NCBI RefSeq assembly: GCF_032062105.1
Contig: NW_026940736.1
Span: 868,001 to 932,000, forward strand
Source: Saccostrea cucullata
Lineage: Eukaryota
Length of the DNA stretch: 64,000 bases
Direction of reading: 5' to 3'
The translations under genes were made by a program, and so were the position numbers. The notes under the pieces were generated by a model. That model was given only the letters and a program-made list of their open reading frames with translations, was not told the DNA's origin and ran no database searches. Of the stretch, positions 68-48,662 are shown in pieces. Numbering within the stretch: position 1 is the stretch's first letter; each line of letters opens with the position of its first letter.

Positions 68-3000
68 ATGTGTATTCAGCAGATACAACAGTTAACATAG
101 AAAACCAAGAAAAAGATACATGTAGATTGGTTGTTGAGGATATAGGTAAAATTTGGATGAAATTTGCATATTATTTACACAATAGTACCTTATTAACATA
201 TGAAATGAATTAATTATTATCATGATTGTCTTTTTTGCAATTGAAGTAAGAGTAAAACTTTTATATACTATGATTTCTTTTATCATTGTCTCTGAAAAGA
301 ATGTTGCAGTTTTAGATTGATTTCTTTCATTTTACAAGAAAAATTTGTGAATTTATTGTTGTCAACACATGATCTAAATCAGCAATCTGAATCTTCATGT
401 TTAATTACATTTATAGCTTACAATCACATGTAGTTCACGCAAGGAGAGAGAAATTCTTAAATTCATGAAATGTGTTTTTTGCTTCAGAAACAATTTTACG
501 TGGAAATTTGGAGGACGCAGAATCAGACAAACAAAAGACAAATGACGAGATTAGTTCTGAACCTGACAATGTGTCTGATTTTGATCCCATTGAAACGTTT
601 GAAGATGAACAAGATAGTTCAAGTACAGACCATCTTTCCAAGGAAGAAAAATCTGACAATGAGGCACTGGTTTATAATAATATCCCAGAAAAACTTGAAG
701 ATAAGGAAATAAGTGTAAAGAATGATGTCTGCAGTCCTGGATCTTTGCAGGCCATAAAAAAGGTACAGAATAACAGTAAGAAGAGTTCAGGGGAATTACA
801 GGATACAGAAAAGAATGATGAAATGGAATTTGTACAACGGTCAGAATTGAAAAGGAAAGGGAAGAATCTAAGACAATCCAGCAGGAAAGAGCGTAAATTT
901 GATGGAATTATTCAACAGGATGAAATAAATCATCAGAATGAACAAATGAGAGAAAGGTTAAGAAGAAGGTCTGAACCAGTTGAAAAGAGAAAAAAGAAAA
1001 ATGTTAGTGAGGAAAAAGATGAAAGTAAAAATAACAATATGGAGGAGGTAGAAAAGTCATTGGGACATAATTGTCTGTTTTGTGATAAACAATTGAAGAA
1101 TAGAAAAACTTTGATTCAGCATGTTGTCAGACATGCAGGGCAGAAACTTCGATGTAAAATTTGTGACACTATGTGTAATAAGAAAAATATACTACAGGAG
1201 CATGTTAGAATGCATGAATTTCAGACCAGTGGACCCGGTTTGGACAACAGTGAGATGTATGATGTTGAAAGTAGAACATGTAAACTTTGTCAGGTTCAAC
1301 TGGGCTCAGTTTTTTCTCTGAAGAGACATATGAAATGTCATGAAAACTTAAAAGATTTTAAGTGTTATGTATGTGCTGAGAATTTTCATACCGAAAAGGA
1401 GTTAGCTTTACATACGGCCATTCATATGGTGTCACTGGTGTACTCGTGTGGGACTTGCAGGATTGGATTCGATTCCGAGGAGGCTTTACAATACCATAGA
1501 GGAAAGAACAACTGTAGTGCTGCAGAGTTACCTGGGGAGACTAGCTTTAATTGTTCCGTTTGTGATAAAGGGTTTATGTACCAGAAAAATTTAGAAAAGC
1601 ATTTGGAAACGCATAAAAATAACCAAAATTCTGCTTCCAACAAAGGGTCGACGCTTTCAGAAAATACTGCTAAAACCAATGGGGGACAAAGTGGAATAGG
1701 TGCTGTTAACAGTGATTTGAGCCAGTTATCTTCACATAATGTCCAGCAACAAGACATGGAAACAGGCTCTTCTTGTTTTGATAGCAGGAACGTGGACCAA
1801 AAAAATGCAGCTGAAATTAATCCATCAACTGACATTCCCACCTCTTCATCACAGAGTGAGAAAAGTTCAAAAGATCTTACATGTAATTTATGTGGACAAA
1901 TATTCAAGAAGGCAATGGCCTTGTATCGTCACAAATTGGGGCACGACGGCACGGGAATGTTTCCGTGTAGGTTTTGTAACTTTGTGACCAATTCCAAAGA
2001 CAATCTGACCAGACATGCCAAAACACACTTGGCAAAGCTTCCACATATTTGTGACATCTGTGATAAAGGTTTTACAGAAAAGTGTCATTTAACTTTTCAT
2101 ATGAACTCCTCTCATTTTCATAAAAGGCAATTCCTCTGCGACCATTGTGGGAAATCCTTTCGTGCTCAACAGTCCTTGCTTGCTCACAAACGATCACATA
2201 TGGGTACCAGGCCCTATAAATGCAGGTACTGTGATCAGGCTTTCGTAACAGGAAGTGGGAAGAAAGAGCATGAGAAAATTCATCAGAATAAAAAGACCTA
2301 CATGTGTGATTCATGTGGGATGTCGTTTAACCAGAGGTGCGGTTTATACACCCATAAACTCACACACCATAATGATAAACCATCAAAGATCTGCCCGGAG
2401 TGTGGCAGGGCATTCAAAACTGATCATTACCTTAGATCCCATTTTGTCTCCAGGCATCTAAAACTGGAGGACGTGGATAATTACGGCTTTAAAGTCTATA
2501 CTTGTGAAGTTTGCCAAAAATTATTTTCAGACAAGAGCGACATGAAAAGCCACATGAATAAACATACAGGTATATATGTAATTTATTTGGTATATTTACA
2601 ATAATGATTTAAAAATCATATGAATATTTCAAATATTGATGTAAGATTTTTTTTGTTAAGTTTGAAAGTTTTCAGACAAAAGTTTTTTTCTAACTCGTGG
2701 CTTTTAAAAGCTTTTTTTTTTTTTTTTTTTAAGTTTCATTTTTTGTGGCAGATAAAACAGAGATGTCCCAATGTGATGAAATAAGTGTCTCATCGAATTT
2801 TCTCTACTTTTCCCCTCTATTTTAGGAGAGAAACCATTTAAATGTGCCTACTGCAACAAAGGCTTCTCTGACAGGAGTAACATGAGGGCCCATCAGCGAA
2901 TTCACCAGGAATACAGGCCCCATCTCTGTAATATCTGCGGGAAAGGCTTCATCTTCAACAGGGACCTCAAGAAGCACCTCAGAACCCACTCGCCTCAAGC

Positions 3001-3160
3001 AGACGACACAAACAGATTGCAGGAATCGGACACAGCTGTGGAATTTTTAAGGTCCTCATTAAACACAGATGATGCGGGGGGTGCTGAAGTACAGAACCCC
3101 AATACTGTGGGGGAGTTTGAAATTCAGGTCAAATTTTCTGAAGATTTTATGTATAAATGA
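68..3160 (+). CDS. C2H2 zinc-finger protein (~16 fingers), 5'-incomplete; exons 68-145, 488-2569, 2826-3160
   Basis: Repeated C-x2-C-x12-H-x3/4-H motifs in ORF 472-2604 and ORF 2882-3160. GT-AG intron 2570-2825 restores the canonical linker HTG|EKPF. Phase-1 intron 146-487 joins an open 78-nt upstream exon (acceptor gcttcag at 481-487). Stop TGA at 3158-3160. Confidence 0.9.
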
Positions 3161-10394: not shown

Positions 10395-11966
10395 TTAAAA
10401 CGTATTTCTGATGAAATTGTCTCGAATTCGAGTCGACTCCTCCCGACTTGACGACGAACCAGTCAACATGTCCCTTAGTCCACTACCGAGATCAAACCCG
10501 TCTGGGAGTTCCAACCCTCCCGAGCTCGACCCCCCAACTCGTAGCACGCCGAGCCCTCTGAGGTCGTCCATAGACAATGTACCACCAAGCGGCACCTCTA
10601 TACCACGTGATTCCTCTGGCCCAAGGAAATTGTAGCGTTCCATTCTGAACACTCTAATCTGGCCAGAAATATCGCCTATCCACAAATTTTCATGTGAATC
10701 CACGTTGAAACAACTTATACTGCCAGACATGTTGGCTAGAACTATAGATTGAAAGGTTGCCTCTTCGTCGACAACATGGATTAGGTTTGTCCCTGCGTCC
10801 AAAATGTAGTAGTTGTCATTCTGGTCACTTGCAACTGACCGTGGTTGAAAGGGGTAGCTATTCGTGATATTTATACTATCATCCGATTGCTCAAGTCTTT
10901 TGAGCCCCCTCTTCCCAGTATATTTCTTAGGATACTTCAATTTTTTGACTGTCGATAGTGTCGTACTGTCTATAAAAAATACGCACTTCTTTGTCGTTTC
11001 GCAGAGAGCGATCTGTCCGGTCTTCTCATTAACAGTCATAGATGATACCTCATGAAGCTCAAGGTTCACATCCAGTGGTTGGATCTTCTTCAACATTTGG
11101 TCTGTGATAAATAGACCACTGTTGTTTAAATGTGTGTTATCAGAGTGACGACGCGTTGCAATCAGCAGACGACCATCATCGTACGCGTATAACGAGATGG
11201 GAACGCTGTTTTCTGTGGTTGTTACAAACCTTAGTTCTTGTTGATCGTTCAGCAACAGAATTTCACCACTGGAAAAGGCTAATACAAGTGTACCATCACT
11301 AAATCGAGCTATGTCCTGGAGTACATTTTCGACATATTTTCTGTACATCTCCTGGCCATTACGGGAAAACTTGGCAACGAAGGGTCTGTTTGTTAAAACC
11401 CAGCACTCATTTTTGTCGTCTGGAATTATCTTTCGAATACGCTCAAAATTATTGCATTTGAATGACGTACTAAGGTAAGCGAAGAACGCAGACTTCACGG
11501 TACTCCTGTAAGCATTTCCAATTCTTCGAAGAATTCGCAAATCTCGATGACCATCGTTTTCTTCGTCGCTGTCCTCGTCGAAATCGCCAAATTTTTTCTC
11601 ATCCTTGTGATGATGACTTTTGTGGCAACCGCTGCAGAGGATGCTGTTACACTCATGACAGTGCTTCAGTTTTCGTACCTCCCTTGCTCCGCAAATATCA
11701 CACGTCTCCTCTTGTTGTGGCGCGGATTTAAAATAATTGTCAAAGAATCCTTGAACTCCATCTTTCGGAATGTAGACGTCCTGTCTGCAGATTGGACACT
11801 TGACGGAGGAATCTGAATTTGAAGGAGTAGCAGCTATAATGTTGTCAATACACGGACTGCAGAACGTGTGAGAGCAGGGTAGAATTTTCGGAACTTTATC
11901 TGGAGTTGAAAACTGATAAGCACAAATTGGGCAGTTTGAGTCGTCTTGTTGTTGTTGTTCATCCAT
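10395..11966 (-). CDS. RING-HC / B-box-like / NHL-like beta-propeller protein (TRIM-like E3 ligase), single coding exon, 523 aa
   Basis: RING motif CPIC...LPCSHTFCSPC...CPIC; CDIC...CHECNSILCSGCHKSH B-box-like motif; C-terminal beta-rich repeats such as PRSVASDQNDNYYILD and VDSHENLWIGD. Confidence 0.88.
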   Translation of the reverse strand: MDEQQQQDDSNCPICAYQFSTPDKVPKILPCSHTFCSPCIDNIIAATPSNSDSSVKCPICRQDVYIPKDGVQGFFDNYFKSAPQQEETCDICGAREVRKLKHCHECNSILCSGCHKSHHHKDEKKFGDFDEDSDEENDGHRDLRILRRIGNAYRSTVKSAFFAYLSTSFKCNNFERIRKIIPDDKNECWVLTNRPFVAKFSRNGQEMYRKYVENVLQDIARFSDGTLVLAFSSGEILLLNDQQELRFVTTTENSVPISLYAYDDGRLLIATRRHSDNTHLNNSGLFITDQMLKKIQPLDVNLELHEVSSMTVNEKTGQIALCETTKKCVFFIDSTTLSTVKKLKYPKKYTGKRGLKRLEQSDDSINITNSYPFQPRSVASDQNDNYYILDAGTNLIHVVDEEATFQSIVLANMSGSISCFNVDSHENLWIGDISGQIRVFRMERYNFLGPEESRGIEVPLGGTLSMDDLRGLGVLRVGGSSSGGLELPDGFDLGSGLRDMLTGSSSSREESTRIRDNFIRNTF

Positions 11967-35200: not shown

Positions 35201-38200
35201 ACAAAAGACCAGGCCATTGCAAAAAAGTCTCCTAGGGGGTTAGTCACCTTTTTCAGTTTTTAGGTCACCTGAGTAAACTCGGGTGACCTATTGCTATTCG
35301 TTGTTGTCGTCTTCGTGCGTCGTCTGTCATGCGATAACATTTGAACATTTTCAGCTTCTTCTCTGAAACCGCTCAACCAATTTCAACCAATTTTGGCACT
35401 AAACATCTATGGGTAAAGGGGAACATAAATTGCGAATTTCATGGTCCCTGCCCTCCCTTGGGGCCTGGGGGTGGGGCCAAAACCACTAAAATTAGTGCAA
35501 TTGTAGAAGTTCGGGCTTTACGGACCGTGGATATCGGCCTGGATAGCTCAGTGGTTAGAGCACCTGACTAGTAATACAGGGGTCCCGGGTTCGATTCCCG
35601 GTCCAGCCATATGTTTTTCTTCGTGCATTTCTCCTTTCCTACTACATTTGGTGGCCAGTGTGGGGGGCTTTGTTCAGGTTTCAGTGTATGTGTAAATTAG
35701 TAATTCCTGGCAGGGCCCTAGAACTTGTGTCTTCGAGGTCGAAGACTGTTTAAAGAGGGAGGAATGTAGAAGTTCGGGCTTTATGGACCGTGTATATCGG
35801 CCTGGATAGCTCAGTGGTTAGAGCACCTGACTAGCAATACAGGGGTCCCGGGTTCGATTCCCGGTCCAGCCATATGTTTTTCTTCGTGCATTTCTCCTTT
35901 CCTACTACACAATCTTTAAAAATCTTCTATGAATCTGGACATCAAGCAATCAAACTGTTGGCATGATTGTGATCAGCATTGAGTCCTCTACCAAAATTGT
36001 GAAATCCATGGCTCCAGGGACAGGGGTTCTAGTGCTAGGGTGGGGCTAAATAGGCTGTATAGTGAAAATGCATTATTTCTTTGCAAATTTTCTTTTCTGC
36101 TCCTGGGCATTAAATAACCTAACCAAGTATATAGTTATGTTGAATAAGATTGCCTCTTCCAAAATTGTGAATTTCATGAGCTCAGGGTCAGGGGTTCTGG
36201 TGTTAGGGTGGGGTTCTGTTGATTATATACTGAAAATGCATAAATTCTTTAAAAATCCTCTCATATGTTCCTGGGTATAAAACCAATGAACTGTGTATAT
36301 AGTTATGATGAGGAAGGATGCTTCTTCCCAATTTATGAATTTCATGACCCCTGGGTCAGGGGTTCTGGTGTTAGGGTGTGGCTCTATAATGATTATATAG
36401 TGAAAATGCATGAATTCCTTGGAAATCTTTTCCTTTGCTCCCTGGTATAATGCCAATGATTTAACTATATATTTATAATGAAGAAAGCCTGATGTTTCCA
36501 AATGATTAATTTCAGAGCCCCTGCATTAGGGGTACTGCAGACAGGGGTAGGGGGTTACATATCCTGAAAATATAGTAATGCTTTGAAATCTGCTCTTTGA
36601 TATCAATCACCCATTTCGGATAAAATGAAATTTATAAAATTTCCAAAATGTTGAAATATGTGGCCCCAAGGTCAGTGGTTCTTCTGGGTTGGTGTGCACA
36701 ACTGGTGGTTATAAAGTGGAAATGCATTTTCTCTCTGTTACTCTGATCTGCCTTTGGGTATTAAGTAACCAAAATAAGCATGCTAAGTGTAAAGTTTTGA
36801 TAAACAATGGTGCCTTTTTCAAAATAGTGAATTACGAGGCTTTTGGTTTAAAATAGTCAAACCAAATTCAGTTGTTGGAGAATTGTTACATGTTCCTTAG
36901 GTGACCTATAAGGCCCGTGGGCCTCTTGTTTTTTTCAGTTTTGACATTGTTAAGTAAATATATTATTTGCATAATTAAGGGTTTTCCTCCCTTTCTTTCA
37001 ATTAGTACTTTGATATATATTTATACCCCTCGCTTGAAAAGTGGGAGGGTATACTGTAATTGGAATGTCTGTCCGTCTGTATAGCAGTCCATCTAAATGT
37101 CTTTCTGTCCATCCATCTGTTACGTTTTGGGGTACCCATCTCTTATCTGAAACTCCTCATATACTACTGAGTGAAATTTAATGAAACGTTCACAGAATCT
37201 TTATGACATATTTCCAATGTCAACCTCCTATTTTAGTTTTTGATCGGACACATATTTCGGGTTTCCATAGCAAAACATGGACACTGCCTTTTTATACATA
37301 TGGGAGGCGGGGGTATCATATAGTGAGCTCATTGCTCACAATACATCAATCCTGATACTAAAACCTAGGAAAATATCGATATGGATTTCTGACATATAAC
37401 TTAATTTTAAGCTTGCAAACTTATTTTAAATAATTTATTTATTTACAGAAAGCTAACAGCATTTATCAAAAAACACAAAGAAAGGGAACTTGCAAAGGCC
37501 TTGATTGAAAGAGAAAACATAAAGAAAGTACAGGTAAAATGATCATTTCTTTATTAGACAACTGTGATTTACTTGTTTAAACTTTTTCTGAAAGCTATTT
37601 GAATGGAATAAGAACCAAAGTTACAATAATAAGATTATTATTGAGTATAATACAAACAAAATGGTAAACAAACCATTTCTTCCATTATTTAAGGCTGCTG
37701 ATTTCACAAAACAGAAAGATGCAGTGAATACGGAAAAGGCATTAGATCAAGAAGCTTTTGGAGATGAGAAGGAATCCCCTGTTCTAGAGACTCCAACATT
37801 TGGAGATGAGAAGGAATCCCTTGTTCTAGAGACTCCAACATTTGGAGATGAGAAGGAATCCCTTGTTCTAGAGACTCCAACATTTGGAGATGAGAGGGAA
37901 TCCCTTGTTCTAGAGACTCCAACATTTGGAGATGAGAAGGAATCCCCTGTTCCAGAGACTCCAACATTTGGAGATGAGAAGGAATCCCTTGTTCTAGAGA
38001 CTCCAACATTTGGAGATGAGAAGGAATCCCCTGTTCCAGAGACTCCAACATTTGGAGATGAGAAGGAATCCCTTGTTCTAGAGACTTCAACATTTAGAAA
38101 TGAGAAGGAATCCCTTGTTCTAGAGACTCCAACATTTGGAGATGAGAAGAAATCCCTTGTTCTAGAGACTTCAACATTTAGAGATGAGAAGGAATCCCTT

Positions 38201-39026
38201 GTTCTAGAGACTTCAACATTTAGAGATGAGAAGGAATCCCCTGTTCTAGAGACTCCAACATTTGGAGATGAGAAGGAATCCCCTATTCCAGAGACTCCAA
38301 TGGATGTGAAGAAAGATAGCCATAAACCGGAAGAGCTCTTGATGGATGAAAAAATAGCAACACCAATTGGAGATACCGAAGTCTTAGAAGTCAACAAGGA
38401 TCTGAAGATAACACTTGAGGTATTAAAACACAGCATTCACATGTATTTGCAGATGAATTATGAATTACAATTAGGCAAAAGAGATTTGTAAAAATTCCTA
38501 TTCATTTACACTTTTAATGTTCTTTCTATAATTTTTGAAAGTTGTTAAAATATTTTTGTTAACTATCACTTTCAGCTTTTGAATAAGGATGATGATAAGT
38601 ATGGTGATGATGAAGATGACATTGCTGATGATGATGATGATGATGACTGCTTATTTGGGCCAAGAAAGCTATTCTTCTTTGGCATAGATTATTTTAAGGT
38701 AAAGCAAATCTTCATTATTTCATAACTTTCTCAATTTGTATAGTGAGAGCCTGAGAGGAGGAAAAATATTTTATTTTTAGTGACAATGTAAATTATTAAA
38801 TTTACATCAATATCTTTATTGTCTTTACAAATATTTCAAAGACTTCCAATCAACCGAAATGAAAAAAAAAATGTCACCCCCTTCCATCCTAATGTTTAAT
38901 AAAGTTCAGTTTAATTAACATAGTAAATAAAACTGATTAAATTCAATTCTTGTTAAAATATTTCATTAATGATTTTTTTTCCTAATTTTTCATCTGATAC
39001 AGGATGCTGGAAAAGCTGTGTGGTGA
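32247..39026 (+). CDS. Uncharacterised multi-exon protein, copy B (~520 aa); coding exons 32247-32297, 33069-33143, 33662-33747, 33874-33919, 34516-34593, 34717-34844, 35098-35238, 37449-37533, 37694-38419, 38576-38698, 39003-39026
   Basis: Same 11 coding exons and phases as copy A; all indels are multiples of 3. MDFNKILDFGDTPVADV-DTKLRILKFDYSWSDAVEEEE...; ends DAGKAVW* (TGA where copy A has GGA). Confidence 0.8.
35536..35609 (+). tRNA. tRNA-Thr(AGT)-like sequence within the 5' LTR, probably not a functional tRNA
   Basis: Cloverleaf with A box TAGCTCAGTGG, B box GGTTCGATTCC and T5 terminator at 35614-35618; one-nt bulges in the acceptor and anticodon stems. Confidence 0.6.
35799..35872 (+). 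tRNA. tRNA-like copy within the 3' LTR (anticodon position reads AGC)
   Basis: Identical to 35536-35609 except AGT to AGC. Confidence 0.55.
37757..38302 (+). repeat. Coding minisatellite, 13 x 42 bp (FGDEKESPVLETPT)
   Basis: Units start at 37757, 37799 ... 38261; copy A has one unit in the same exon. Confidence 0.95.
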
Positions 39027-40854: not shown

Positions 40855-41706
40855 CTAGAGAAACTTGGCAACGAAGGGTCTGTTTGTTAGAACCCAGCAC
40901 TCTGACTCATCGCCGAATTTTTTCTCATCCTTGTGATGATGACTTTTGTGGCAAACGCTGCAGAGGATACTGTTGCATTCATGACAGTGCTTCAGTTTTC
41001 GTACCTCCCTTGCTCCACAAATGTCACATGTCTCTTCTTGCTGTGGCGCGGAATTATAGTAATCGTCAAAGAATTCTTGAACTTCATCACTGTCACTGTC
41101 ATTTTTTATTATATGTTTCATCAGTGTAATTATATTTTTGTCATGAAATGAGAATTTATAGTAATTCTTTGATAGCCGACGATCATCGTACGCGTACAGC
41201 GAGATAGGAACGCTGTTTTCTGTGGTTGTTACATTTTGGACATATTTTCTGTACATCTCCTGGCCATTACGGGAAAACTTGGCAACGAAGGGTCTGTTTG
41301 TTAGAACCCAGCACTCTGACTCATCGCCGAATTTTTTCTCATCCTTGTGATGATGACTTTTATGGCAAACGCTGCAGAGGATACTGTTGCATTCATGGCA
41401 GTGCTTCAGTTTTCGTACCTCCCTCGCTCCACAAACGTCACACGTCTCTTCTTGCCGTGGCGCGGATTTACAGTAATTGTCAAAGAATCCTTGAACTCCA
41501 TCTTTCGGAATAAATACGCCCTGCCTGCAGATTGGACACTTAACGGAGGAATCTGAATTTGAAGGGGTGGCGGCTATAATGTTGTCAATACACGGACTGC
41601 AGAACGTGTGAGAGCAGGGTAGAATTTTTGGAACTTTATCCGGAGTGGAAAACTGATATGCACATACTGGACAGTTTGAGTCGTTTTGTTGTTGTTGTTC
41701 ATCCAT
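40855..41706 (-). pseudogene. Rearranged paralogue of the RING gene (RING plus two B-box-like copies, propeller mostly deleted); 283-aa open ORF, pseudogene or young chimera
   Basis: First ~128 aa nearly identical to 10395-11966; two internal in-frame deletions, an insert from non-coding DNA (41105-41178, matching ~41990-42060) and a duplicated B-box segment. Confidence 0.75.
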
Positions 41707-44882: not shown

Positions 44883-45230
44883 AAATAATCAATTCTAACA
44901 TATGTACATACATGGAACTTTTCCATTAACTGTAATCTGGTTATAATAGCTGGAATTCTTGAAGAAAATCTCATGAATTTGAATTTCATTCCAAAAGAAA
45001 AATGATATGAAAATATTGAAAGGAAAGGAAGGGGAGACAATTTATATTATAACAAAGGGCAGTTACTCTTGGTGAGGTAATATTTGGAATTCATGAGATT
45101 TTCCAGGTCATCTCTGAACAGATCAGAAGAATCACAAGTGCAATATTTGAGATTGTTTAACCATTTTAGATATATTTTCATGCGAAGCACAATCCCCTTC
45201 CTTTCAAAATAGATCCTAAATTAAAAAAAA

Positions 45231-47070
45231 ATGGAGAAAAATAAAACAAAGAATACAAGCATTCAAGGAACCTGTCCAAAGAACCTGACAAACTCTCATT
45301 TGGAGAAAAATAAATTAAAGAATACTAGCATTGGAGGAATCTTAACAAAAAACCAGGCAAACCCTCATTTGGAGGAAAATAAAACCAAGAATACCAGCAT
45401 GGAGGAACCTTACCAAAAACCCAGCCACTCATGGTGAGGAAAATAAAACCAAGAATATCAGCATTTGAGGAACCTCACCAAAAGACCAGGCAAACCCTCA
45501 TTTGGATGAAAATAAAACCAAAAATACTAGTTTTGGAGGAACCGTACCAAAAGACCAGGCAAACTCTCATTTGGAGGGAAATAAAAACCAAGAATGCCAG
45601 CATAAGAGGAACCTTACCAAAAGATCAGGAAATGTCTCATTTGGAGGAAAATAAAACCAAGAATACCAGCATTGGAGGAACCTTTCCAGAAGACCTGGTA
45701 AACTCTCATTTGGAGGAAAATAAAACCAAGAATACCAGCATTGGAGGAACCTTTCCAGAAGACCTGGTAAACTCTCATTTGGAGGAAAATAAAACCAAGA
45801 ATACCAGCATTGGAGGAACCTTTCCATAAGACCTGGTAAACTCTCATTTGGAGGAAAATAAAACCAAGAATACCAGCATTGGAGGAACCTTTCCAGAAGA
45901 CCTGGTAAACGCTCATTTGGAGGAAAATAAAACCATGAATACCAGCACAGGAGCATCGTCGGAAACCCACGGGTGATCTAGTCTTTACTTATCACCCGTG
46001 GGCAAACTCGCCGAAAAATCGTCGTATGTAATAAATCTGCATTGGTCATTTGATTGGCCGATTCACAGAGTCGCGATGCCAAACAACAAAATACAGTTCA
46101 CGTTACCAAATTCAATAATTGATATCGAGTAGAGACGACTATAAAGGGTTGGAGTGGACATATGCATGTTCGGCATTGCCAAAACATGAAAAACTCATTC
46201 CGTAGTGAACACAGATGATAAATCCACTCACCGGTGCATTTTGCAGTTAGAAAGAGGTACTCCTATAAAATATCTGACGGATATCAATGTCAGTGACCTG
46301 TACGAATTGACTTTCATAGTTTTAAATCAAACTTTGCACTGGAGTATCAACACTCAACTTGAGTTCACTCCAAAAAGGGAAGAAGAAGAAGAAGTTTTAA
46401 CGAGCGTCAAAATATTTACCATAAATAGCAAAGTAATAAACGTATTTTTCAAAAATGAAGATTTCCAATTTTCTGATTGGTTGACTAGAAAAACAAATTA
46501 GCATATTTTACGGCGATATTTCAGCGAGTTTGCCCACGGGTGATAAGTAAAAACGAGATAACCCGTGGGTTTCCGACGATGGCACTGGAGGAACCTTACC
46601 AAAGAACCAGGCAAACCTTCATTTCGATTAGGAAAAAACCAAGAAGACTTGGTAAACTCTCATATTAAAGAAAATACAACCAAGAATAATAGCTTTGGAG
46701 GAGCCTTAGCAAAAGACCAGGCAAACCCCCATGTTGAAAAAAATAAAACCAAGAATACCAGCATTAGAGAAACCTTACCAGAAGACCTGGTAAACTCTCA
46801 TTTAGAGGAAAATAAAACAAAGAGCACCAACATTGGAGGAACCTTACCAAAAGACCAGGCAAATTCTCATTTGGAGGAAAATAAAACCAAGAATACAAGC
46901 ATTCGAGGAATCTTAACCAAGGAACTGGCAAACTGTCATATTGAGGAAAATAAAACCAAGAGTATCAGCATTGGAGGAAACTTACCAAAAGATCAGGCAA
47001 ACTCTCATTTGGAGGTAAATAAAACCAAGAATTCTAGTACTGGAGGAATCTTACTTACAGACCAGGCAAA
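45231..47070 (+). repeat. 69-bp minisatellite (EENKTKNTSIGGTLPKDQANSHL), ~17 units, split by a MITE
   Basis: Period of 69 between 45641, 45710, 45779 and 45848. Confidence 0.9.
45954..46581. mobile_element. MITE with ~70-bp TIRs and a 9-bp TSD (AcademH- or MULE-like)
   Basis: catcgtcggaaacccacgggt... / ...acccgtgggtttccgacgatg; TSD gcacaggag (45945-45953) / gcactggag (46582-46590). Confidence 0.85.
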
Positions 47071-48662
47071 CTATATATCAAGGAAAAAGTGGATGATAAA
47101 CCAAATACCAAGGAGAAAGTGGATGATAAACCATATGACAAGGAGGAAATGGATGATAAACCAGGTATCAAGGAGGAAGTGGATGATCAACCAGATATCA
47201 AGGAAGAAGTGGATGATAAACCAGATACTAAGGAGGAAGTGGATGATAAACTATATACCAAGAAGGAAGTGGTTGATAAACCATATAACAAAGAGGAAAT
47301 GGATGATAAACCAGATATCAAGGAGGAATTGGATGATAAACCATATACCAAGAAAGCAGTGGATGATAAACCAGATATGAAGGAGGGAGTGGATGATAAA
47401 CCACATACCAAGAAGGAAGTGGATGATAAACCAGATATGAAGGAGGGAGTGGATGATAAACCATATAACAAGGAGGAAGTGGATGATAAACCAGATATCA
47501 AGGAGGAAATGGATGATAAACCAGATATCAAGGAGGAAGTGGATAATAAACAAGATATCAAGGAGGAATTTGATGATAAACCATATGCCAAGAAGGAAGT
47601 GGATGATAAACCAGATATCAAGGAGAAAGTAGATGATAAACCAGATACTAAGGAGGAAGTGGATGATAAACCATATACCAAGGAGGAAGTGGATGATAAA
47701 CCATATATCAAGGAGGAAGTGGATGATAAACCATATATCAAGAAGGGAGTGGATGATAAACCATATACCAAGGAGGATGCGTATGCAAAACCAGATAACA
47801 AGGAGGGCATTGAGGATTAACCAGATTCTAAGGAGGAAGTGGATGATAAACCAGATATCAAGGAGGAAGTGGATGATAAACCATATATCAAGAAGGAAGT
47901 GGATGATAAACCAGATATAAAGGAGGAAGTGGAGGATAAACCATATAACAAGGAGGAAGTGGATGATAAATCAGATATCAAGGAGGAAATGGATGATAAA
48001 CCTGATATCAAGAAGGAAGTGGATGATAAACCAGATATCAAGGAGGAATTGGATGATAAACCATATATCGAGAAGGAAGTGGATGATAAACCAGATATCA
48101 AGGAGGAAGTGGATGATAAACCATATAACAAGGAGGAAGTGGATGATAAACAATATAACAAAGAGGAAGTGGATGATAAACCAGATATCAAGGAGGAAGT
48201 GGATGATAAACCATATACCAAGGAGGGAGTGGATGATAAACCATATACCAAGGAGGAAGTGGATGATAAACCAGATATCAAGGAGGAAGTGGATGATAAA
48301 CCAGATATCAAGGAGGAAGTGGATGATAAACCAGATATCAAGGAGGAAGTGGATGATAAACCAGATATCAAGGAGGAAATGGATGATAAACTAGATATCA
48401 AGGTGGAGGTAGATGATAAACGAGATATCAAGGTGGAAGTGGATGATAAACCAGGTATCAAGGAGGAAGTGGATGATAAACCAGGTATCAAGGAGGAAGT
48501 GGATACATACTGACTTAACTTTTCTTTCATTAGTGTTTAGCTTTATTTGTCCATGTGACCTTGATAAACCAGATATCAAGGAGGAAGTGGATGATAAACC
48601 AGATATCAAGGTGGAAGTAGATGATAAACCAGATACCAAGGAGGAAGTGGATAAACCAGATA
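47071..48662 (+). repeat. 30-bp minisatellite (KEEVDDKPDI), ~50 units
   Basis: ccagatatcaaggaggaagtggatgataaa in strict 30-bp phase from ~47071 to 48506, plus ~3 units at 48562-48662. Confidence 0.95.

What the first reader, a model, noticed from the sequence alone, without database searches (positions are those of the whole stretch)
35502..35909. Complete 408-bp LTR mini-retrotransposon whose LTRs each contain a tRNA-like Pol III gene, with the empty site in the paralogue
Seen in sequence: TG..CA LTRs of 145 bp, a PBS 2 nt after the 5' LTR, a hairpin GTCTTCGA-gg-TCGAAGAC (35729-35746), a PPT abutting the 3' LTR and a 4-bp CAAT TSD. Copy A has a single CAAT at the equivalent site (20401-20404), which demonstrates a post-duplication insertion. 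Each LTR holds an A box, B box, tRNA-Thr-like cloverleaf and T5 terminator. Established knowledge (from memory): this is the architecture of Helenus/TRIMp3 elements, the tRNA analogue of 5S-bearing Cassandra, with 4-bp TSDs in animals. The class is described but little studied. Inference: it is Pol III-driven and mobilised in trans by a Gypsy-type element. The PBS looks tRNA-Ile(AAT)-like and matches the element's own tRNA 3' end for only 7 nt, so self-priming is unlikely.
Basis: partly seen in the sequence, partly recalled or inferred. Interest (0 to 1): 0.72.

Follow-up and report, generated by a model that had tools for sequence, protein, structure and literature searches.

The report
Known tRNA-bearing oyster mini-retrotransposon copy
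This is a real, recently inserted copy of a small gene-less jumping element that carries a tRNA look-alike in each end repeat; the very same family (Helenus-5_SaGl) was published in 2024, so it is ordinary, and the only additions are a likely helper element in the same genome and one correction about its predicted stop signal.

Summary
In detail: two 145-bp LTRs (3 mismatches) around 118 bp, a CAAT duplication, and an empty site at 20401-20404. It is already known. By eye it differs from the published Helenus-5_SaGl consensus (Kojima 2024, PMC10886601, Data S1; 144+118+144 bp, 4-bp TSD) only by one extra T per LTR, two internal substitutions and three 3' LTR changes. The genome holds at least 52 near-full-length units; 15 of 21 loci examined have 4-bp TSDs, and one array has 10 LTRs. 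The PBS pairs 18/18 with the host tRNA-Ile(AAT). Correction: the family has T4 after the tRNA-like part; T5 in both LTRs was seen only in this copy (59 vs 2 exact hits). Addition: a young Gypsy family in this genome shares the PBS, 17/19 bases at the PPT and the terminal bases; its sister family has the same PPT with the His PBS of Helenus-1/-2. Pol III transcription and the helper's identity are untested. The scan has noted Helenus-type elements in other genomes.

The parts
35498..35501 (+). left target-site duplication CAAT
35502..35646 (+). 5' LTR, 145 bp, TG..CA
   Evidence: by eye equals the published Helenus-5_SaGl-LTR plus one T
35536..35609 (+). tRNA-Thr(AGT)-like module, with A box 35544-35554 and B box 35588-35598; irregular anticodon arm
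   Evidence: Fig S1B of PMC10886601
35614..35618 (+). T5 run (family state is T4); predicted Pol III terminator
35649..35666 (+). PBS, 18/18 complementary to the host tRNA-Ile(AAT) 3' end plus CCA
35729..35746 (+). hairpin shared with Helenus-2-like copies; not found in the two candidate helpers checked (G1, G3); role unknown
35752..35764 (+). polypurine tract abutting the 3' LTR (one private substitution at 35754)
35765..35909 (+). 3' LTR, 145 bp; tRNA-like module 35799-35872, T5 run 35877-35881
35910..35913 (+). right target-site duplication CAAT
35262..36925 (+). host repeat: HINE-type non-autonomous Helentron (5' inverted repeat, microsatellite, 168-bp tandem array, 3' subTIR plus palindrome); end approximate
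   Evidence: read depth; structure as described in passages of PMC7492417
20401..20404 (+). empty site (single CAAT) in the duplicated copy A

Best explanation
It is a young copy of the published non-coding LTR retrotransposon family Helenus-5_SaGl, whose RNA is likely made by RNA polymerase III from the tRNA-like module and likely copied and inserted by the proteins of a Gypsy element of the same genome. Shown: structure, family, TSDs, PBS match to a host tRNA, and coding Gypsy elements with the same PBS. Inferred: Pol III starts in the 5' LTR tRNA-like module, partly reads through the T4 behind it and stops at the same T4 in the 3' LTR, giving an RNA of about 345 nt with the tRNA-like part as R. 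Host tRNA-Ile(AAT) primes minus-strand synthesis and the PPT primes the plus strand. The best helper candidate is Gypsy family G1 (L051), which shares PBS, PPT and terminal bases. The extra T in both LTRs of this copy likely arose once during reverse transcription and was copied to both ends; it may make this copy a poorer donor.
For: Near identity to the published consensus, read by eye. The same three differences separate this copy from its sister copies in the genome. At least 52 near-full-length units. Exact 4-bp TSDs at 15 of 21 loci, 14 of 20 distinct insertions; outermost LTRs differ at 0-4 positions in 20 of 21. PBS 18/18 to a tRNA-Ile(AAT) gene found at 28 places. G1 has protease-RT-RNaseH-integrase order, 883-bp LTRs 98.75% identical, a 4-bp TSD, the same PBS and 17/19 bases at the PPT end (0 of 300 shuffles reached that score). 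Sister family G2 (pol 40-62% identical to G1 in the main blocks) has the same PPT with a His PBS, mirroring Helenus-1/-2_SaGl. T4 follows the tRNA-like part in Helenus-5 and in 21 of 21 matched Helenus-2-like LTR hits, from 12 of 16 loci, two of which overlap.
Against: No RNA evidence for Pol III: the only raw-read run is oligo-dT, shows about 4+4 reads of depth on the internal part on both strands, and no sharp ends. G1 has almost no reads over its coding region in that run. Beyond PBS and PPT, G1 shares nothing with Helenus-5, including the hairpin. A second Gypsy, G3 (L053; LTRs 100% identical; similar LTR termini), has the same PBS but a different PPT, and the G1 PPT is shared with G2, so no single trait singles out G1. 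The lack of other T4 runs in the unit is not significant (1 observed, 1.85 expected, P=0.37). Six of 21 loci lack a called TSD: two abut another PPT, one is truncated, three are unexplained. That T5 terminates better than T4 is recalled; my search found no suitable paper.
Confidence: 0.8

Rival explanations
1. Same family, but the donor RNA comes from Pol II (read-through from host transcripts or a cryptic LTR promoter); the tRNA-like part is a passenger or yields only short RNAs.
For: A Pol III terminator-like T run sits in the 5' LTR ahead of the PBS. Oligo-dT reads cover the internal part on both strands. The paper gives no experimental proof of Pol III use.
Against: A and B boxes are intact and conserved across Helenus families. 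The 34 bp upstream of the tRNA-like part leave little room for a Pol II promoter (inference). Cassandra is reported to be Pol III-transcribed.
Confidence: 0.15
2. The helper is G3 (L053) or several Gypsy families, not G1 alone.
For: G3 has the identical PBS, a 2-nt LTR-PBS spacer like Helenus-5, LTR termini close to Helenus-5's, and 100% identical LTRs. The PBS search was exact-match and excluded one base at one upstream position, so other families may be missed.
Against: G3's PPT region scores no better than shuffles against Helenus-5 (196 of 300). Its pol is only 34% identical to G1.
Confidence: 0.3
3. Local tandem duplication of a tRNA-SINE, or a functional tRNA gene pair.
For: Rfam tRNA score 54 bits; tRNAscan-SE called this family tRNA-Thr in the paper.
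Against: Dispersed copies with their own 4-bp TSDs, PBS, PPT and TG..CA ends; irregular anticodon arm.
Confidence: 0.02

Closest known systems
Helenus-5_SaGl (Kojima 2024, Biology 13:119, PMC10886601; Data S1, Table S1, Figs S1B, S2C)
   Same: LTR 144 + internal 118, 4-bp TSD, tRNA-Thr-AGT-like LTR, tRNA-Ile-AAT PBS, hairpin and PPT; near-identical sequence (compared by eye).
   Different: This copy has T5 rather than T4 in both LTRs (408 vs 406 bp), two internal substitutions (35681, 35754) and three changes in the 3' LTR.
Helenus-1_SaGl, Helenus-2_SaGl, Helenus-4_CVi
   Same: Related tRNA-like LTR, the same or nearly the same PPT, T4 after the tRNA-like part; the hairpin in -2 and -4_CVi.
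   Different: tRNA-His PBS and different internal sequence.
Gypsy-167_CGi (Repbase; named in Fig S2C; the main text says Gypsy-157_CGi)
   Same: Same Ile-AAT PBS as Helenus-5 and as G1/G3 here.
   Different: From another oyster and linked by PBS only. I could not compare it with G1, as Repbase is not available.
Cassandra TRIMs (plants)
   Same: Small-RNA-derived Pol III promoter in each LTR; tandem LTR-internal arrays (passages of PMC7215508).
   Different: 5S-derived, not tRNA-derived; plant; transcription is reported for Cassandra.
biv-TRIM (PMC6934838)
   Same: Bivalve TRIM with tandem forms and an internal hairpin (passages).
   Different: No canonical PBS identified; no sequence comparison was made.

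Membership tests
Helenus (TRIMp3) | Non-coding TRIM under 1 kb with two LTRs | tested here: met
   408 bp, 145-bp LTRs, 118-bp interior; no ORF of 110 aa or more overlaps it
Helenus (TRIMp3) | tRNA-derived sequence with A and B boxes in each LTR | tested here: met
Helenus (TRIMp3) | PBS complementary to a host tRNA 3' end, not to its own tRNA-like part | tested here: met
   18 nt to host tRNA-Ile(AAT), 7 nt to itself
Helenus (TRIMp3) | PPT abutting the 3' LTR | tested here: met
   35752-35764
animal Helenus | 4-bp TSD at dispersed copies | tested here: met
   15 of 21 loci; no other length from 3 to 7 matched
Helenus-5_SaGl | Sequence identity to the published consensus | tested here: met
   By-eye comparison with Data S1: one extra T in the LTR, 116 of 118 internal bases; no computed alignment
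TRIMp3 | Transcription by RNA polymerase III | not testable with these tools
   Only oligo-dT raw reads and contigs were available
animal Helenus | Mobilised by a Gypsy element | tested here: inconclusive
   Gypsy families with the same PBS (G1, G3) and PPT (G1) exist; sequence sharing only
tRNA-SINE (SINE2) | Single head, LINE-like or A-rich tail, variable long TSD | tested here: not met
   Two LTRs, PBS, PPT, fixed 4-bp TSD; defining features recalled

The most novel reading that the evidence does not exclude
A small Gypsy clade that shares one PPT (G1 with an Ile primer, G2 with a His primer) drives the sister families Helenus-5 and Helenus-1/-2, so the TRIM's primer switch tracked a switch of helper. 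A conserved leaky T4 lets Pol III make a full-length genome from two identical LTRs, and T5 copies such as this one are dead ends. This would name same-genome helpers for an animal TRIMp3 and give a testable rule for its transcription.
Probability: 0.4. Interest if true: 0.42.

Novelty: already known. Interest (0 to 1): 0.16.

Why it matters
As a discovery it matters little: class and family are published. It has modest value as material. Kojima states that Pol III transcription of Helenus is unvalidated and that it is not known how TRIMs stay tied to a helper. This genome offers young copies, a natural T4/T5 pair, and paired Gypsy candidates matching by PBS and PPT. It also warns that tRNA finders will count these LTRs as tRNA genes.

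Tried and rejected
Search for the hairpin in a coding element: my exclusion pattern was out of register and did not exclude Helenus. It gave 247 hits; of the 20 inspected, 19 aligned to Helenus and 1 looked like a truncated Helenus-2 fragment; 227 were not inspected. The hairpin motif was not found in L051-L055 outside Helenus, and G1 and G3 show no similarity to the Helenus interior beyond PBS and PPT; G2 was not checked for it. Test for depletion of T4 runs: not significant. RNA ends or strand: none seen. Polymorphism of this insertion: no listed contig spans a flank-LTR junction and the flank is a high-copy repeat, so it cannot be judged. G1 expression: 51 reads, nearly all in LTR or UTR; one tissue sample proves nothing. 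L097 and L098 are G1 fragments without a second LTR in the 10 kb fetched. Self-priming rejected (7 nt). The Rfam Plastid-ycf2 hit is the reverse strand of the tRNA-like part and is below its gathering score. No earlier scan note on look-alike sequence. Literature search on T4/T5 read-through gave only two off-topic reviews (listing only).

Full report
Observation. Every structural claim holds. The element spans 35502-35909: a 145-bp LTR, 118 bp of interior and a second 145-bp LTR with three mismatches, flanked by CAAT on both sides. Each LTR holds a tRNA-like module (Rfam tRNA 54 bits, gathering 29) with A and B boxes and a T5 run 4 nt behind it. ARAGORN cannot assign the anticodon. The paralogous site has one CAAT at 20401-20404.

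Context. The target lies inside a HINE-type repeat: inverted repeat at 35262, a microsatellite, a 168-bp tandem array, and a 3' subTIR with palindrome at 36899, which fits the structure given in passages of PMC7492417. Contig depth over this flank is far higher than over the element's interior, and 105 RNA reads join the flanks across the element, so empty sites are common. The two window regions are still collinear beyond the repeat, from about 15.8-23.6 kb to 32.0-39.6 kb at 77-92% identity. LTR divergence (2%) is below flank divergence (about 8%), which fits insertion after the duplication.

Family in the genome. A DNA search gave 59 matches, 52 near full length at 93% or more; only 40 of 1490 candidates were scored, so this is a lower bound. 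Of 30 loci fetched I dropped 9 that overlap the same arrays. Of the remaining 21, 15 have an exact 4-bp TSD and none has another length from 3 to 7. Two of the 15 share flanks and are one insertion seen twice (14 of 20 distinct). Two loci without a TSD abut another PPT, one is truncated and three are unexplained. One array has 10 LTRs and 9 interiors inside a single TSD.

Identity with a published family. Kojima 2024 (PMC10886601; I read parts 1-5 of 6 of the text, supplement parts 1 and 10 of 11, and search hits in the supplement) lists Helenus-5_SaGl: LTR 144, interior 118, total 406, TSD 4, tRNA-Thr-AGT-like, tRNA-Ile-AAT PBS, set beside Gypsy-167_CGi. By eye, the window's 5' LTR equals that consensus plus one T, and the interior differs at 2 of 118 positions. 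The same three differences separate this copy from its sisters in the genome. The finding is therefore a copy of a named family.

Correction on the T run. Of 55 LTR rows, 50 have T4, three have T5 (both LTRs of this copy and one inner LTR of the 10-LTR array), one has T6 and one does not cover the site (two of these were read from the alignment differences). Exact patterns gave 59 T4 hits and 2 T5 hits, both in this window. In the RNA run 33 of 39 reads at 35614 lack one T. Helenus-2-like copies also have T4 in 21 of 21 matched hits from 12 of 16 loci (two loci overlap). A private change in both LTRs is what one round of reverse transcription would give (established mechanism; inference here). 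That T4 is leakier than T5 for Pol III is recalled; one search found no paper for it. A test for avoidance of other T4 runs was not significant.

Primer. A pattern search found 28 matching tRNA 3' ends; ARAGORN calls them tRNA-Ile(AAT) in the 3 loci scanned. The PBS pairs with this tRNA plus CCA for 18 of 18 bases, against 7 for the element's own tRNA-like end. This improves on the paper's comparison, which used an Aplysia tRNA.

Candidate helpers. Six PBS hits outside standard Helenus-5 junctions were found: two degenerate Helenus copies, three copies of Gypsy family G1 and one of G3. Both have pol in protease-RT-RNaseH-integrase order. G1 (L051) has 883-bp LTRs at 98.75%, a 4-bp TSD, TGT..TACA ends and 17 of 19 bases shared with Helenus-5 at the PPT (0 of 300 shuffles); G3 shares the PBS and similar termini but not the PPT (196 of 300). 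A PPT search gave 18 hits: 7 G1, 8 Helenus or Helenus-like, and 3 of a further family, G2. G2 has about 960-bp LTRs, pol related to G1, and a His PBS like Helenus-1/-2_SaGl. So two sister Gypsy families mirror the two primer types of the sister Helenus families. Against this: nothing else is shared, the hairpin is missing from G1 and G3, G3 remains a rival, and G1's coding region has almost no reads in the one raw RNA run. My searches (listings) found no paper naming a same-genome helper, but Repbase was not available and may hold these families.

Mechanism. Most likely Pol III transcribes from the 5' tRNA-like module, reads through T4 part of the time and stops at the 3' T4; tRNA-Ile primes; Gypsy RT and integrase act in trans. 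Structure, family and primer match are shown; polymerase and helper are inferred. The paper itself says Pol III use is unvalidated. Passages of PMC7215508 and PMC6934838 show that tandem arrays are known for Cassandra and bivalve TRIMs.

Verdict. Earlier scan notes report Helenus-type elements in other genomes (56 notes, 8 shown); I did not test them and they did not change my reading. Interest 0.16.

Noticed in passing
G000:C15149:65541-98224: Tandem array of about 1.22-kb units, each with tRNA-Ile(AAT), -Arg(ACG), -Asp(GTC) and -Gln(CTG) genes in the loci scanned; 23 Ile hits on this contig.
   Followed up: partly
L015 (G000:C19320:24491-26991): Helenus-5 array of 10 LTRs with one GTTG TSD; the variants repeat every four units, suggesting higher-order duplication.
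   Followed up: partly
L053 (G000:C14372:4901-14900): Gypsy element G3 with 100% identical LTRs, 447-aa gag-like and 1350-aa pol ORFs; its flanking 4-mers match at only 3 of 4 bases.
   Followed up: partly
L051:2192-2761 (-): 189-aa third ORF after pol in Gypsy G1, with no Pfam match; a similar stretch appears in L052 and L054.
   Followed up: no
L094-L096: Gypsy family G2 with His PBS and the Helenus-type PPT; its LTR end resembles that of Helenus-1_SaGl.
   Followed up: partly
window 10395-11966 (-) and 40855-41706 (-): Two related ORFs with an N-terminal RING-like Cys pattern (read by eye): one 523 aa without introns, the other shorter and internally repeated.
   Followed up: no
window 469-3160 (+): Long C2H2 zinc-finger-like ORFs (711 aa and 126 aa).
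   Followed up: no
window 45099-48513 and 37673-38386: Tandem repeats with open frames: 69-bp and 30-bp units (acidic, Lys-rich), and a 42-bp unit present in duplicate B only.
   Followed up: no
PMC10886601: The main text names Gypsy-157_CGi as the Ile-primed element, while Fig S2C shows Gypsy-167_CGi.
   Followed up: no
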